NCBI GenBank assembly: GCA_963695855.1
Contig: CAVOHZ010000010.1
Span: 928,001 to 992,000 of the forward strand
Source of the DNA: an uncultured Nitrososphaerales archaeon
GTDB taxonomy: Archaea > Thermoproteota > Nitrososphaeria > Nitrososphaerales > Nitrososphaeraceae
Direction: 5' to 3'
DNA: 64,000 nucleotides
In this document: positions 691 through 21,778 of the stretch, piece after piece
Layout of the letters: each line of letters opens with the position of its first letter
Position numbering within the stretch: position 1 is the stretch's first letter
Position numbers and translations under genes: made by a program
The notes under the pieces: generated by a model
Databases searched by the model: none
Told to the model about the DNA's origin: nothing
Seen by the model: the letters and a program-made list of their open reading frames with translations, nothing else

Positions 691-1146
691 TTACCATGGT
701 TCTTTTTCGGTTTGTTGCACTGATTGATTAAATTCCTTAGCTAGTTTTCTAGCGTCAAATATTTGCCAGAACTATAAGCCAAAATATCCTATAATACCAA
801 GAAAAATAATCATAGCTATGACTGGATCACCTCCGTATGATGAGAACAACCTAGAAAACAATATAAAGACAAGTATAACATAAGTGACTATACTAGAGAT
901 TAGTAATATTATTCCTTTAGCCACCTGTCCAACATATATATGACCAAGCCTAATAAACCAAATAAACCTCCTATAATTGCTATTAGTGCTGCTGTTCCGG
1001 GACTTCTGTAAGGAAGCTGTGTTACCACAGAACTAGGAGGTCTGGAATCTTCTTGAAGATTGATAGCACATTTCGTATACGTAGAAATATCTTCATTTAA
1101 ATGAGCTGCTGACCACAATTTTTGCAGAATTTTGGTCTATTGGCCA
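691..1146 (-). pseudogene. Frameshifted zinc-ribbon/TM2-like membrane protein
   Basis: ORF 909-1118 (SPGTAALIAIIGGLFG) continues in another frame as LGHIYVGQVAKGIILL and ends WQIFDARKLAKEFNQSVQQTEKEPW* at 691; 5' boundary approximate. Confidence 0.6.
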
Positions 1147-1361
1147 ATCAAATATAACAAAAACAGTACGAAATAAAGATTTCTATTCGATCTATTTTAA
1201 ACATTATCCTTCCTCGCCAATCGCGTTTAAAACATTTAATATAAAAGGAAATTATTCATTGCTAGAACAAAAGTTAGTAATAGTAGGTAATAATCAAGCA
1301 AAATAAAGTGATAAATTGGCTCTGACGATATGAAAATCTTCTAGTATATTCCATTACTGTA

Positions 1362-1494
1362 TGTTGGCTAGGTTCAAACTTAACATACTCCGTATGAGAG
1401 TGAGGCTCTGACTGAACCGTATCTTATGAATGAATGAGTGGCTATCATAGTACCCTTAGAGGGTGAATGGATGTTTGCCACCTGTTAGCCAACA
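1362..1494 (+). ncRNA. Putative IS110 bridge RNA with target- and donor-binding loops
   Basis: Closing stem TGTTGGCTA/TAGCCAACA; two internal-loop hairpins whose loops match the element's target (AACTTAACA, GGCTCTG) and donor (ATGGATG) junctions. Confidence 0.78.
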
Positions 1495-1530
1495 ACAAGA
1501 ACTAAAAAAGAAGGTGAATGAAAAAGAAAA

Positions 1531-2601
1531 TTGAATCATCTTGGAATAGATGTCGGAAAAAGAATATGCAGAGTAGCACTAAAAGATGACATGGGAAAGA
1601 TACAGGATGAATTCTTCTTTGGTAACAATTCTCAGGGAATATTAGAATTGATTAAAAGGACACACAGTCATGGAACAAAAAAATGTAATGCAGTACTGGA
1701 ATCTACCGGTAACATGTGGATGAGAATACATGATACACTGGAAGATAATGGAATAGATACTATACTTGCCAATCCATACAAGACAAAGATAATAGTACAA
1801 GCAAAGATAAAATCAGATAAACTTGATGCTTCTATATTATCTGATCTGCTGAGAACTGGATTGGTATACGAATCATATGTACCTGTAAAGGAATTCAGAG
1901 AAAAAAGGAGTCTGGTCAGACACAGGATAGTATTATCCAGAACCAAAACAAAACTAGCAAACAAGGTTCATGCTATTTTAGACAAATATGAATACAGAAC
2001 AGAACTGGCAGATATATTTGGAAAATCTGGAATTGAGTGGCTGAAATCACTGTCTGTTTCACCAATAGACAAAATAATACTGAATACGACACTAACATCA
2101 ATAGAATCTATAGCTAACCAGATAGAAATAGTATCAAAAGAGATAGCAAGATATGCCTGGCAAGATAGTCAAGATGTAAAGTTACTTCTAAGTATTACAG
2201 GTATAGACATATTTTCTGCAATGCTGATATCAACAGAGATAGTTGATATCACTAGATTCTCTACACCATGGAAACTTGTTAGTTATGCAGGATTGGCACC
2301 ATCTACAAGAGAGTCATCTGGAAAAATAAAAACAGGTAGAATAACAAAACAAGGTTCTCCATTGCTGAGATGGATACTAGTACAGTGTTCATTATCTGCC
2401 ATCAGACATGACCATCATATGAGAACATTCTATGAAAGAATCAAACAGAGAAAGGGGCATGGAAAAGCAATAGTTGCGACAGCAAAAGAAATGCATGTTG
2501 TAATATGGTACATGCTAACAAGACACCAATTGTATAGATACATGAACAAGACTAGATATGAGGAGAAACTAGAAAGACTGAAGAAGATCGGATCTCAATA
2601 A
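1531..2601 (+). CDS. IS110 family transposase/recombinase
   Basis: GIDVGK, LESTG, KSDKLDA (DEDD) and YAGLAP...SSGK...ITKQG motifs. Confidence 0.95.
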   Translation: MNHLGIDVGKRICRVALKDDMGKIQDEFFFGNNSQGILELIKRTHSHGTKKCNAVLESTGNMWMRIHDTLEDNGIDTILANPYKTKIIVQAKIKSDKLDASILSDLLRTGLVYESYVPVKEFREKRSLVRHRIVLSRTKTKLANKVHAILDKYEYRTELADIFGKSGIEWLKSLSVSPIDKIILNTTLTSIESIANQIEIVSKEIARYAWQDSQDVKLLLSITGIDIFSAMLISTEIVDITRFSTPWKLVSYAGLAPSTRESSGKIKTGRITKQGSPLLRWILVQCSLSAIRHDHHMRTFYERIKQRKGHGKAIVATAKEMHVVIWYMLTRHQLYRYMNKTRYEEKLERLKKIGSQ

Positions 2602-2934
2602 AGTAAAGGTAATTAGACAACAAAAAGACAATGACCTCTGAGAATAGGAACGTCATATATAGCGGAGGCTATTGTTGACAATGCTTAATAGATAGAAAGA
2701 CATAACAAAATAAGGCTGAACAGGATACAAAAGATAACCAGCATACATGTAGATTTTCATGGATGTTAAGTTAAGGAAAATTTATGAAATAAATTGAAAA
2801 ATTCTTTTGAAATTGAGCACAGAACATACCTATTACTTTATCCTTAAGTTAACAGGGCCCTATAAACCCGACATTTTTTTCTTTTTTTCTATAATTTATA
2901 AATCTATTACTCTAGCGATATTCTTTTAGTGTTA

Positions 2935-2967
2935 TTGAACTCAAGAGACTGTTCAACTCCCGACGGG
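2935..2967 (+). repeat. att-like site A: hairpin plus tRNA T-loop/3' fragment
   Basis: TTGAAC-N10-GTTCAA then CTCCCGACGGG; GTTCAACTCCCGACGGG fits a tRNA T-loop, T-stem and start of the acceptor strand. Confidence 0.6.
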
Positions 2968-3057
2968 TATGTTATAAATATAATTCATTTCACTTTTATA
3001 CGATTTTGTAATATTGATATATCAATAATTAAATTTGATATACGATAATAACATATC

Positions 3058-3468
3058 ATGAAATTTACAAAAATTATTGAAACCAGTATATATTCTTCCA
3101 ATCTAAAACAAATGAAGGATTTTTATATCGATATTTTGGGATTGGATCTTGTTTCAGAAGAAAAAGACAGACATGTATTTTTAAAAGCAGGAAAAAGCAT
3201 GCTTTTAATTTTCAATCCTAACAATACATTAAATAAAATCAATGATATTTTTCCGTCTCATGGGGCATTTAGTCCTCCTTCTATAATACATTTTGCCTTT
3301 GAAATAAAAAGAGAAGATTATGAAAAATGGAAGTCTCTTTTAAAAGAAAATAAAATCAGTATTGAAAAAGAGAAGAAATTTGGGAAGAGCAAATCAATAT
3401 ATTTTCGCGATCCAGTTGGCAATATGGTTGAATTCATAACCTCTAATGCTTGGCCAGTGGATGATTAA
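3058..3468 (+). CDS. VOC/glyoxalase family protein
   Basis: FYIDILGL, HFAF, SIYFRDPVGNMVE motifs. Confidence 0.9.
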   Translation: MKFTKIIETSIYSSNLKQMKDFYIDILGLDLVSEEKDRHVFLKAGKSMLLIFNPNNTLNKINDIFPSHGAFSPPSIIHFAFEIKREDYEKWKSLLKENKISIEKEKKFGKSKSIYFRDPVGNMVEFITSNAWPVDD

Positions 3469-21405: not shown

Positions 21406-21539
21406 ACACTTGGTGCAAAATTTTGTATGGGACTAGAATTAGACATTAATAACATAGATCTAAATATTAGACAATTATTATATAACTGAGAAAATATTAA
21501 TCATCTGTTTTGATTTATTCTCATTTAGAATACTTAATT

Positions 21540-21597
21540 TTAAGTCTGAACCTAGCCAACATAGATAAATGGTATAGACTAATAGATTTTTTATATC
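21540..21597 (-). mobile_element. Remnant of an IS110 left end
   Basis: Reverse complement GATATAAAAAATCT...TATGTTGGCTAGGTTCAGACTTAA aligns to 1327-1383. Confidence 0.7.
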
Positions 21598-21778
21598 CTC
21601 TAGGATAAAATTCAAAATACTAGAAAAAATATTGCAATTCTGTCAGATTTTTTCAAAATATAGATTTCTGATGTACAGTAACATTCTGTATTGAATAATT
21701 ACATTCTAGTTTTTCTCTAATCTTGTAGTAAATTGAATATTAAATTGTAGCTAAGGTATTATTTATTGAGACTACGAC

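What the first reader, a model, noticed from the sequence alone, without database searches (positions are those of the whole stretch)
1318..2772. Archaeal IS110 whose bridge RNA can be read against its own junctions
Seen: 1362-1494 is closed by a 9-bp stem and holds two internal-loop hairpins. Loop 1 is GGTTCA[AACTTAACA-T]ACTC..GAGT[GA-GGCTCTG-AC]TGAACC. GGCTCTG equals the left flank (1318-1324) and AACTTAACA is the exact reverse complement of the right flank TGTTAAGTT (2764-2772), giving a 14-nt target GGCTC-TG-TTAAGTT. Loop 2 is GTGGC[TATCATAGT]ACCCT..AGGGT[GA-ATGGATG-TTT]GCCAC. ATGGATG equals the element's right end (2759-2765); the other donor guide matches the left end only partly. Known: IS110 recombinases use bispecific bridge RNAs; IS1111-type elements have subterminal IRs and usually a downstream RNA. 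Inference: this element combines an upstream RNA with subterminal IRs, in an archaeon, with a TG core, so it is a candidate programmable recombinase.
Basis: partly seen in the sequence, partly recalled or inferred. Interest (0 to 1): 0.75.

Follow-up and report, generated by a model that had tools for sequence, protein, structure and literature searches.

The report
Archaeal IS1111-type element with upstream bridge RNA
This is a jumping gene in an ammonia-oxidising soil archaeon that carries its own guide RNA, whose loops spell out both the site it inserts into and its own ends; it is a well-supported natural example of a known RNA-guided recombinase system in an unusual layout.

Summary
Window 1323-2763 is a 1441-bp IS110-family element with an intact DEDD/Ser recombinase gene (1531-2601). 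It has 10-bp subterminal inverted repeats with 7-bp and 3-bp terminal extensions, and a TG core at both junctions. The structured region 1362-1494 lies upstream of the gene.

Its first internal loop carries the reverse complement of TG+right flank, then the left flank+TG. Its second loop carries the element's right end+TG. Each 3' arm runs 2 nt further into the partner DNA, like a handshake guide.

Across 36 copies (12 in this genome, 24 in other Nitrososphaeraceae/Bathyarchaeia assemblies) the guides change together with flanks and ends. Left flank equals guide in 26 of 34 copies, for 9 different guide words, and 0 of 20,000 permutations did as well. Two haloarchaeal relatives (38-39% identity) show the same layout.

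The guide order, inverted repeats and extensions are those of the IS1111 group. Only the upstream RNA position is atypical, and such exceptions have been noted in print.

The target is the terminal inverted repeat of IS6-family elements and their miniature derivatives. Seven 318-355-bp non-autonomous derivatives keep their own RNA.

RNA expression, circle formation and activity are not shown. Verdict: a new member of a known kind.

The parts
1318..1322 (+). Left target half (LT, GGCTC), the outermost bases of an IS6-type terminal inverted repeat of a ~101-bp miniature element split by the insertion
   Evidence: An empty paralogue at C10:1746000 reads GGCTC-TG-TTAAGTT with a single TG.
1323..2763 (+). 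The insertion sequence proper (1441 bp, one TG counted with the left end)
   Evidence: Conservation among 12 genomic copies starts and stops here.
1323..1324 (+). Core dinucleotide TG, left copy (the right copy is 2764-2765)
   Evidence: TG is the only sequence shared by the two junctions. Among the 36 copies tabulated it is absent only where a junction is damaged or deviant: L032, L059 and L055 at the left junction, L042 at the right.
1330..1339 (+). Left subterminal inverted repeat ATGAAAATCT, preceded by the 7-bp extension TGACGAT (1323-1329)
   Evidence: The same word is conserved in a haloarchaeal relative.
1362..1494 (+). Bridge/seek RNA: P1 1362-1370/1486-1494; P2 1371-1376/1413-1418; P3 1386-1390/1398-1402; P4 1438-1442/1477-1481; P5 1452-1456/1460-1464
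   Evidence: Fold. In 32 distinct homologues, 91.4% of cells are paired against 30-42% when partners are slid, and 7 pairs show compensatory change. Covariance model R1 finds 12 strong copies in the genome.
1377..1385 (+). Target loop 5' arm AACTTAACA, complementary to the top strand of core + right target (TG-TTAAGTT)
   Evidence: 9/9 here. It covaries with the right flank (C/G, A/T, G/C, TTCAC and TAAAC variants). 213 of 252 positions match against 191 +/- 3.7 permuted.
1404..1412 (+). Target loop 3' arm GGCTC-TG, identical to left target + core (so it pairs with the bottom strand), plus AC, which equals the first 2 nt of the element (handshake-like)
   Evidence: 26 of 34 copies match perfectly, with 9 guide variants each matched by a flank, and 0 of 20,000 permutations as good.
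1443..1446 (+). Donor loop 5' arm TATC, complementary to GATA at 1327-1330 (element positions 3-6 after the core)
   Evidence: Four covarying states: TATC/GATA, TGTC/GACA, TATA/TATA, TCCT/AGGA. 32 of 36 match perfectly. The match was not found in the two haloarchaeal elements.
1467..1475 (+). Donor loop 3' arm ATGGA-TG, identical to the element's right end + core, plus TT, which equals the first 2 nt of the right target (handshake-like)
   Evidence: 24 of 28 match perfectly, with variants ATAGATG (minis) and ACGGGTG (L044) changing on both sides. The 2-nt extension TT or TA follows the right flank in 26 of 28.
1531..2601 (+). IS110-family DEDD/Ser recombinase, 356 aa, TTG start (ATG at the same place in relatives)
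   Evidence: Pfam PF01548 1.5e-21 and PF02371 2.9e-22. NCBIfam NF033542 scores 223 bits against a cut-off of 140. D7, E57, D96, D99 and S262 align with the IS621 catalytic residues.
2602..2763 (+). Right non-coding end (162 bp), containing the right subterminal repeat AGATTTTCAT at 2751-2760 and the 3-bp extension GGA at 2761-2763
   Evidence: Its last ~110 bp are retained in the miniature derivatives.
2764..2859 (+). Core TG + right target TTAAGTT + the rest of the miniature IS6-type element. Its other terminal repeat (GGCCCTGTTAACTT on the minus strand, 2846-2859) is an unoccupied near-target.

Best explanation
Window 1323-2763 is an intact IS1111-type member of the IS110 family living in a Nitrososphaeraceae archaeon.

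The region 1362-1494, upstream of and on the same strand as the recombinase gene, encodes a bispecific bridge (seek) RNA.

Loop 1 selects the target GGCTC-TG-TTAAGTT. [quoted passage not shown] Loop 2 recognises the element's own joined ends, ...CATGGA-TG-ACGATATG.... [quoted passage not shown] Its 5' arm makes a short 4-nt contact with positions 3-6 of the left end.

Each 3' arm continues for 2 nt that match the other DNA partner. Together the two 3' arms therefore spell the two product junctions, a mirror image of the IS621 handshake guides.

By analogy with IS621/ISEc11, the recombinase-RNA complex would excise the element as a circle. It would then insert it, at the TG and without duplication, into the terminal inverted repeat of IS6-family elements and their miniature derivatives.

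Shown here: anatomy, RNA structure conservation, guide-DNA covariation, intact catalytic residues, empty target sites, and recent multiplication of copies.

Inferred: that the RNA is made and processed, binds the recombinase, and directs recombination; and which strand is exchanged first.
For: (1) Protein. Both IS110 Pfam domains are present. NF033542 'IS110 family RNA-guided transposase' scores 223 bits, above its cut-off. The five catalytic residues align with those of IS621.

(2) RNA structure. z is -2.89. In 32 distinct homologues 91.4% of cells pair against 30-42% for slid controls. 40 cells show double changes against 13 +/- 3.8 in shuffles (0 of 500 as high), and 7 pairs are compensatory.

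(3) Target guides against flanks.
- 3' arm = left flank in 26 of 34 copies: 222 of 238 positions against 173 +/- 5.3 permuted, 0 of 20,000 as good.
- The result holds on the 16 unique pairs (0 of 20,000).
- 5' arm against right flank: 12 of 28 perfect, 213 of 252 positions against 191 +/- 3.7 (0 of 20,000).
- D, L040 and L047 were not parsed by the script for this arm. Read by eye, they also have guide = left flank.

(4) Donor guides against ends: 24 of 28 and 32 of 36 perfect, with three and four covarying states.

(5) Two haloarchaeal plasmid elements at 38-39% identity have the same order of words in their upstream non-coding region. LT5+TG+AC matches 9/9 in both, rc(TG+RT7) 9/9 and 7/9, and LD5+TG+RT2 8/9.

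(6) There are 6 exact and 97 near (<=2 mismatches) unoccupied target sites at termini of IS6-type repeats. One empty paralogue of the very repeat interrupted here has a single TG.

(7) Copies A and B are 98-99% identical, both intact, and sit in different places.

(8) IS1111 hallmarks stated by Siddiquee et al. are met: sTIR, 7-bp/3-bp extensions, and the top-strand complement placed 5' of the bottom-strand match.
Against: No direct evidence that the RNA exists as a discrete species.
- Contigs from four metatranscriptome libraries cover 1380-1571 and bridge into the coding region. Nothing covers 1250-1357. Such libraries can contain DNA, and contigs show neither ends nor strand.
- No promoter or terminator could be assigned.
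- The outer 4 bp of P1 are not kept in the miniature copies, and P1 shows no compensatory change.

No Rfam family matched.

Some guide matches fail or are weak.
- The 5' arm of loop 2 pairs over only 4 nt, and this was not recovered in the haloarchaeal elements.
- The Bathyarchaeia copy L044 has a loop-1 5' arm that does not match its right flank.
- Minis F and H, and L032, L035, L038, L040 and L046, each have 1-2 mismatches to the right flank.

Donor-guide covariation is within one inherited element, so relatedness inflates its permutation statistics.

Three of the five full-length copies in this genome are broken.
Confidence: 0.87

Rival explanations
1. The RNA and element are real, but this genome's copies are relics. 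The family no longer moves here, and the matches are fossil records of past insertions.
For: Three of the five full-length copies (C, D, E) carry stops, frameshifts or a ~1-kb insertion. Truncated left-end fragments exist, for example window 21537-21600. No circle junction was seen.
Against: A and B have intact 356-aa genes with all catalytic residues. They are 98-99% identical at different sites. Minis F, G and I are 100% identical over 337-338 bp at three different sites, and H is 99.1%. That points to very recent movement.
Confidence: 0.12
2. The covarying words act at the DNA level (for example the left end pairing or synapsing with the target as DNA, or protein-read repeats), not through an RNA.
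For: No discrete RNA was demonstrated. P1 shows conservation only, with no compensatory changes.
Against: Helices P2-P5 keep pairing through compensatory and G-U changes that make sense only for a folded single strand of the + sense. One U-G pair is invariant in 32 of 32 sequences. The layout of two internal loops, both arms covering the core, plus a 2-nt extension is that of experimentally proven bridge/seek RNAs (passages read). RNA-library contigs do cover the 3' two-thirds.
Confidence: 0.04
3. The structure is an ordinary 5' leader that regulates the recombinase gene, and the matches to flanks are coincidental.
For: The region lies directly upstream of the gene with no T-run terminator between them, and RNA-library contigs bridge the two.
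Against: 0 of 200,000 shuffles carry the three words together. Nine different guide words are each matched by the cognate left flank in other copies. The same holds in haloarchaea at 38-39% identity. A leader role and a guide role are not exclusive: in ISEc11/ISEc21 the short RNA is thought to be processed from a longer transcript.
Confidence: 0.01

Closest known systems
IS1111-group elements with seekRNA (ISEc11, ISKpn4, ISPa11; Siddiquee et al. 2024, PMC11187229, passages read)
   Same: DEDD recombinase. Subterminal inverted repeats with 7-bp left and 3-bp right extensions. No target duplication. The RNA segment complementary to the top strand lies 5' of the bottom-strand match. Insertion is site- and orientation-specific.
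   Different: Here the RNA lies upstream of the recombinase gene, not downstream. The host is an archaeon. The sTIR is 10 bp, against the usual 11-13. The paper notes exceptions with an upstream non-coding region (ISMtsp17) or long regions on both sides (ISHvo10, ISAcp5). In the passages I read it does not analyse their RNAs.
IS621 / IS110-group bridge RNA (Durrant et al. 2024 PMC11208160; Hiraizumi et al. 2024 PMC11208158, passages read)
   Same: Upstream RNA on the gene's strand. Target loop first, donor loop second. Each arm includes the core dinucleotide. A 2-nt handshake extension follows the 3' arm of each loop and matches the non-cognate DNA. The catalytic D, E, D, D and S are conserved.
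   Different: Strand polarity is mirrored. [quoted passage not shown] The core is TG, not CT. Long subterminal repeats are present. The protein is only distantly related (phmmer E 5.8e-9).
[quoted passage not shown]
   Same: An IS1111-type element whose specific target is the terminal inverted repeat of another transposon family.
   Different: Here the targeted repeats are those of IS6-family elements and their miniature derivatives in an archaeon.
MITEPpu9 / ssr9 module of ISPpu9 (Pares-Guillen et al. 2025, PMC12288879, abstract and passages read)
   Same: A non-autonomous, MITE-like derivative flanked by IS110-family ends, carrying a small-RNA gene, and proposed to use the IS recombinase in trans.
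   Different: Ssr9 is a regulatory RNA that is not needed for transposition. The minis here carry the bridge RNA itself, with a donor loop that has changed together with the minis' own ends.

Membership tests
IS110 family (DEDD recombinase insertion sequences) | Recombinase with DEDD_Tnp_IS110 (RuvC-like) and Transposase_20 domains | tested here: met
   PF01548 at 77.3 bits and PF02371 at 79.3 bits, both above their cut-offs. NF033542 at 223.3 bits against a cut-off of 140.
IS110 family (DEDD recombinase insertion sequences) | Catalytic D-E-D-D plus the serine nucleophile | tested here: met
   D7, E57, D96, D99 and S262 align with the IS621 residues that Hiraizumi et al. call D11, E60, D102, D105 and S241. 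The PDB chain numbering is shifted by 2.
IS110 family (DEDD recombinase insertion sequences) | Sequence-specific insertion with no target duplication beyond a shared core dinucleotide | tested here: met
   TG at both junctions, empty sites have a single TG, and the target word recurs.
IS1111 group | Subterminal inverted repeats (7-17 bp per Durrant; usually 11-13 bp per Siddiquee) | tested here: met
   A 10-bp perfect repeat at 1330-1339 / 2751-2760, conserved in the copies that retain the corresponding end.
IS1111 group | Asymmetric terminal extensions: 7 bp left, 3 bp right | tested here: met
   TGACGAT (1323-1329) and GGA (2761-2763). The rule is quoted from PMC11187229.
IS1111 group | In the RNA, the top-strand complement is 5' of the bottom-strand match | tested here: met
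   1377-1385 (complement of the top strand) precedes 1404-1410 (identical to the top strand).
IS1111 group | Long non-coding region / RNA downstream of the recombinase gene (typical, with published exceptions) | tested here: not met
   The RNA is in the 208-bp left end. The right end is 162 bp and carries none of the guide words. A Rhizobium relative at 37% identity has the usual downstream arrangement.
IS1111 group | Recombinase clusters with IS1111-group proteins in a phylogeny | not tested
   No reference set of ISfinder proteins was available. Plasmid tblastn gave 37-40% identity to haloarchaeal and rhizobial elements and only 23-25% to enterobacterial ones, which does not decide the question.
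Bridge RNA / seekRNA | Two internal loops in a conserved stem scaffold | tested here: met
Bridge RNA / seekRNA | Target-loop arms complementary to opposite strands of the two target halves, overlapping at the core, and covarying with natural insertion sites | tested here: met
Bridge RNA / seekRNA | Donor-loop arms complementary to the joined element ends | tested here: inconclusive
   The 3' arm is fully met (7 nt, covarying). The 5' arm covers only 4 nt, offset from the core, and was not recovered in the haloarchaeal relatives.
Bridge RNA / seekRNA | Handshake nucleotides 3' of the 3' arms that match the non-cognate DNA | tested here: inconclusive
   AC and TT/TA fit in nearly all copies. Only the donor-loop pair varies (TT or TA, following the flank in 26 of 28), and on unique pairs this is not significant.
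Bridge RNA / seekRNA | The RNA is expressed, binds the recombinase and is required for circle formation and insertion | not testable with these tools
   The only data are RNA-library contigs over 1380-1571, which is weak.

The most novel reading that the evidence does not exclude
The seven 318-355-bp derivatives are a class of non-autonomous mobile element whose identity is carried by an RNA rather than by protein-binding ends.

Each keeps only the two ends and its own bridge RNA. Its donor loop has co-evolved with its own diverged ends (ATAGATG/ACTATA against ATGGATG/ACGATA in the full elements). A borrowed recombinase loaded with the mini's RNA would therefore move the mini and not the master element.

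Minis F and H sit at sites that fit the master's target loop better than their own. This raises the possibility that target and donor loops from different RNA molecules are mixed in one synaptic complex.

Separately, the mirrored handshake predicts that IS1111-type enzymes exchange the strand opposite to the one IS621 exchanges first.
Probability: 0.4. Interest if true: 0.6.

Novelty: new member of a known kind. Interest (0 to 1): 0.45.

Why it matters
Bridge/seek-RNA recombinases are being developed as programmable tools for inserting DNA. Almost all mechanistic work is on bacterial IS110-group enzymes (IS621, IS622, ISCro4), and IS1111-type systems have no structure yet.

This locus gives a compact, fully annotated IS1111-type system: a 356-aa protein, an RNA of about 130 nt, and a 14-nt target. 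Every guide position can be read off natural variation, including a mirrored handshake that makes a testable prediction about strand order.

It also documents RNA-guided transposition in ammonia-oxidising archaea. The element's target is the terminal repeat of another transposon family, so one mobile element family preys on another. Miniature derivatives that retain the guide RNA show that the RNA gene itself can be the selfish unit.

None of this overturns current understanding. It extends a known mechanism to a new host group and a rarely analysed layout.

Tried and rejected
- Rfam scan of 1000-3200: 6 matches at E 1.9-8.2, all far below gathering scores and none relevant.
- RNA evidence: four metatranscriptome runs were laid on 1250-2850. 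Short contigs cover 1380-1571 and most of the gene, with none over 1250-1357 and none showing a circle junction. Contigs cannot show ends or strand, and DNA carry-over is possible. I use this only as a weak hint, and absence of cover counts for nothing. One odd joint (2763 back to 2319, run X3, one contig) fits no model and was left.
- Promoter reading: A/T-rich boxes next to the left repeat (TAGTATAT at 1342-1349 in full copies, TCTTTATT in the minis) could be archaeal TATA boxes. Their spacing to P1 differs between the two types, so I could not assign a start.
- Group placement by plasmid tblastn did not discriminate between groups.
- The notebook of earlier scan findings held nothing on this element.
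- My first two parsers for RNA ends were faulty and were replaced.
- The table script failed to parse the target loop of D and L055, and skipped L040 and L047 altogether because they have a 2-nt insertion between P1 and P2. For three of these (D, L040, L047) the guide and left flank were read by eye. L055 stays unparsed.
- Copy K was left out of the RNA alignment because of a 23-nt internal duplication.
- Literature searches for an archaeal or Nitrososphaeraceae bridge RNA, or for a bridge-RNA-bearing MITE, found none.
Full report
WHAT IS THERE

The window is part of a 3.55-Mb, ~31% G+C archaeal genome. The archaeal SSU rRNA model scores 1490.8 bits over its full length (composition).

Between 1531 and 2601 lies a 356-aa open frame with both IS110-family domains (PF01548 1.5e-21, PF02371 2.9e-22). 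NCBIfam NF033542 'IS110 family RNA-guided transposase' scores 223 bits, above its cut-off of 140. Aligned to the IS621 chain in the PDB, D7, E57, D96, D99 and S262 fall on the residues that Hiraizumi et al. name D11, E60, D102, D105 and S241. The relationship to IS621 and ISCro4 is distant (E about 6e-9).

BOUNDARIES

A DNA search of the window's own genome found four other full-length copies: one at 99% and three at 87-88% identity, one of them split by a ~1-kb insertion. It also found seven short copies that consist only of the left and right ends.

- Conservation begins at TG-ACGAT-ATGAAAATCT (1323...) and ends at AGATTTTCAT-GGA (...2763), followed by TG.
- The element is therefore 1441 bp, with TG at both junctions.
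- It has a perfect 10-bp subterminal inverted repeat (1330-1339 / 2751-2760).
- Its terminal extensions are 7 bp and 3 bp.
- Only the window copy (A) and copy B have intact genes. C, D and E carry stops, frameshifts or the insertion.

THE OBSERVATION

The region 1362-1494 folds with a 9-bp closing stem and two hairpins carrying internal loops: -41.6 kcal/mol, z -2.89, and 0 of 200 shuffles as stable. In 200,000 shuffles of the 133 nt, the three matching words never co-occurred.

COMPARATIVE TEST OF THE RNA

A protein-based scan of one genome per species returned 29 loci. All were from Nitrososphaeraceae/Nitrosocosmicus assemblies except one Bathyarchaeia contig at 59% identity.

I aligned 32 distinct RNA sequences. 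I left out copy K because of a 23-nt internal duplication, and collapsed the exact duplicates E, G, I and L052. On the five-helix structure:

- 91.4% of 955 cells form pairs, against 30-42% when partners are slid by 1-3 columns.
- 7 pairs change on both sides.
- 40 cells carry double changes, against 13 +/- 3.8 in shuffles (0 of 500 as high).
- P1 is conserved but shows no compensatory change, and its outer 4 bp are not kept in the short copies.
- One U-G pair is invariant, which fits a + strand RNA.

A covariance model built from this alignment finds 12 strong and 2 weak matches in the genome. It also finds matches in 22 of 101 sampled genomes of the family, in 8 of 18 genera. One of the 22 is the unpublished genome G035; without it the count is 21 of 100.

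GUIDE-DNA COVARIATION

For 36 copies I tabulated loop words against flanks and ends and permuted the partners.

| Relation | Perfect matches | Positions matched | Permuted | Permutations as good |
|---|---|---|---|---|
| Loop-1 3' arm vs left flank+TG | 26 of 34 | 222 of 238 | 173 +/- 5.3 | 0 of 20,000 (also 0 on the 16 unique pairs) |
| Reverse complement of loop-1 5' arm vs TG+right flank | 12 of 28 | 213 of 252 | 191 +/- 3.7 | 0 of 20,000 (11 of 20,000 on unique pairs) |
| Loop-2 3' arm vs right end+TG | 24 of 28 | 190 of 196 | 179.5 +/- 1.6 | 0 of 20,000 |
| First 4 nt of loop-2 5' arm vs left-end positions 3-6 | 32 of 36 | 138 of 144 | 109.3 +/- 3.3 | 0 of 20,000 |

- Nine different loop-1 3' words each have a copy with the identical left flank: GGCTCTG, GGTCCTG, GGTGCTG, GGCTGTG, GGCCCTG, AGTTGTG, AGTTCTG, GGGTTTG and GTTAATG.
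- The loop-1 5' arm tracks the flank through variants such as TGTTAATTT, TGTTAACTT and TGTTCACTT.
- The loop-2 3' arm changes on both sides in ATAGATG (short copies) and ACGGGTG (L044).
- The loop-2 5' arm shows four covarying states.

Misses, told in full:
- B and L046 differ from the guide at the outermost left-flank base.
- I, L, L034 and L050 differ at one inner base.
- L032 and L059 have a deleted base at the left junction.
- F, H, L032, L035, L038 and E have one right-flank mismatch. The 3' portion of the right flank diverges from the guide prediction in L037, L045, L052, L053 and L054.
- L042 has a deviant right junction.
- L044's 5' arm does not match its right flank at all.
- The parser missed the target loop of D and L055 and skipped L040 and L047. 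Read by eye, D, L040 and L047 have guide = left flank; L055 stays unparsed.

Target-flank covariation is the stronger evidence, because flanks are not inherited with the element. Donor covariation is inflated by relatedness.

A WIDER CLADE

The best plasmid hits are haloarchaeal IS110-family genes at 38-40% identity. In two of them (Halanaeroarchaeum, Haloarcula) the same anatomy is present:

- the ATGAA(A/G)... subterminal repeat;
- a TG core;
- an upstream non-coding region of 200-205 bp;
- in that region, in this order: the reverse complement of TG+right flank (9/9 and 7/9), left flank+TG+AC (9/9 in both), and right end+TG+T (8/9).

A Rhizobium relative at 37% identity has the usual IS1111 layout instead. 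Its long non-coding region is downstream and carries the left-flank word.

HOW IT COMPARES

In IS621 the 5' arm of each loop pairs with the bottom strand and the 3' arm with the top strand. Two handshake nucleotides after each 3' arm match the non-cognate DNA.

Here the polarity is mirrored. The 5' arm reads the top strand. The 3' arms are identical to the top strand and run 2 nt into the partner (GGCTC-TG-AC and ATGGA-TG-TT), so they spell the two product junctions.

[quoted passage not shown] They also state that IS1111 elements have subterminal repeats with 7-bp and 3-bp extensions. All of this is met. Only the upstream position of the RNA departs from the group norm. The same paper lists exceptions: ISMtsp17 upstream, and ISHvo10 and ISAcp5 with long regions on both sides.

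I therefore file the element as an IS1111-type member with a translocated RNA.

THE TARGET

The 14-mer occurs 6 times exactly and 97 times within two mismatches in the genome. It is nearly always the outermost bases of repeats whose upstream flanks are unrelated. These repeats include ~101-115-bp miniature elements (one is the repeat split in this window, 1318-1324 + 2766-2859), ~725-bp elements and ~1400-bp elements.

The ~1400-bp element encodes a protein matching DDE_Tnp_IS240 at 37.6 bits, above its cut-off of 27. It also matches the NCBIfam IS6 model at 105 bits, below that model's cut-off of 125.

The element thus inserts into the terminal inverted repeat of IS6-type transposons. This parallels IS4321/IS5075 and Tn21 (known to me only from a reference title). 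The guide variants seen in different copies correspond to the natural variants of these termini.

SHORT DERIVATIVES

Seven 318-355-bp copies keep both ends and the RNA but have no gene. F, G and I are 100% identical over 337-338 bp at three sites, and H is 99.1%, so they moved recently.

Their ends differ from those of the full copies (ACTATA... and ...ATAGA), and their donor loops differ in step. The closest published case I found, MITEPpu9, carries a regulatory RNA that is not the bridge RNA.

WHAT IS NOT SHOWN

- That the RNA exists as a discrete molecule, and where it starts and ends.
- Circle formation.
- Any activity.

Metatranscriptome contigs covering 1380-1571 are only a weak hint.

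Noticed in passing
own genome, e.g. G000:C3:255295-256690, C8:260125-261527, C3:29447-30168; window 1318-1324 + 2766-2859: There is a large superfamily of repeats sharing IS6-type termini (GGCTCTGTTAAGTT and variants). It includes ~101-115-bp miniature elements, ~725-bp elements and ~1400-bp elements that encode an IS6/IS240-type transposase. 97 termini lie within 2 mismatches of the 14-mer.
   Followed up: partly
G000:C8:113655-114019, C10:1354501-1354865, C10:1407611-1407970, C10:1746092-1746456, C8:187899-188240, C3:465558-465935, C3:37333-37676: Seven non-autonomous 318-355-bp derivatives keep both ends and their own bridge RNA. Three are 100% identical. Copy K has a 23-nt tandem duplication of the 3' half of the target loop.
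   Followed up: yes
window 21537-21600 (minus strand): A degenerate, truncated left-end fragment of the same element family. It has a subterminal-repeat-like word, then P1 and P2 5' strands, then unrelated sequence.
   Followed up: partly
G000:C10:167344-168374: Copy E of the element is split by an insertion of about 1 kb inside the recombinase gene. Its nature was not examined.
   Followed up: no
G000:C10:287645-288700 and 289954-291009; C10:140732-141742, 267178-268188, 1598725-1599735; C8:370371-371102; C3:300200-301023; C10:1354928-1355984: There are at least four other IS110-family lineages in the genome at 34-44% identity to this recombinase. They include a pair of inverted intact copies 1.3 kb apart and three identical intact copies. 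One broken copy lies 70 bp downstream of mini G. Their RNAs were not examined.
   Followed up: no
window 2655-2672 and homologues: A conserved small hairpin, ATAGC-GGAG-GCTAT, followed by a palindrome (TTGTTGACAA), lies in the right non-coding end. It is kept in the miniature copies. Its function is unknown.
   Followed up: no
L044:1863-1984 and 3215-3240 (Bathyarchaeia contig): In this most distant copy, three of the four guide relations hold with lineage-specific words. The 5' arm of the target loop does not match the right flank. No explanation was found.
   Followed up: partly
window 2728-2763 joined to 2319-2561 in one contig of run X3: A single metatranscriptome contig joins the right end of the element back to the middle of the recombinase gene ('goes back 445'). 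This is not the expected circle junction and may come from a rearranged relative in another organism.
   Followed up: no
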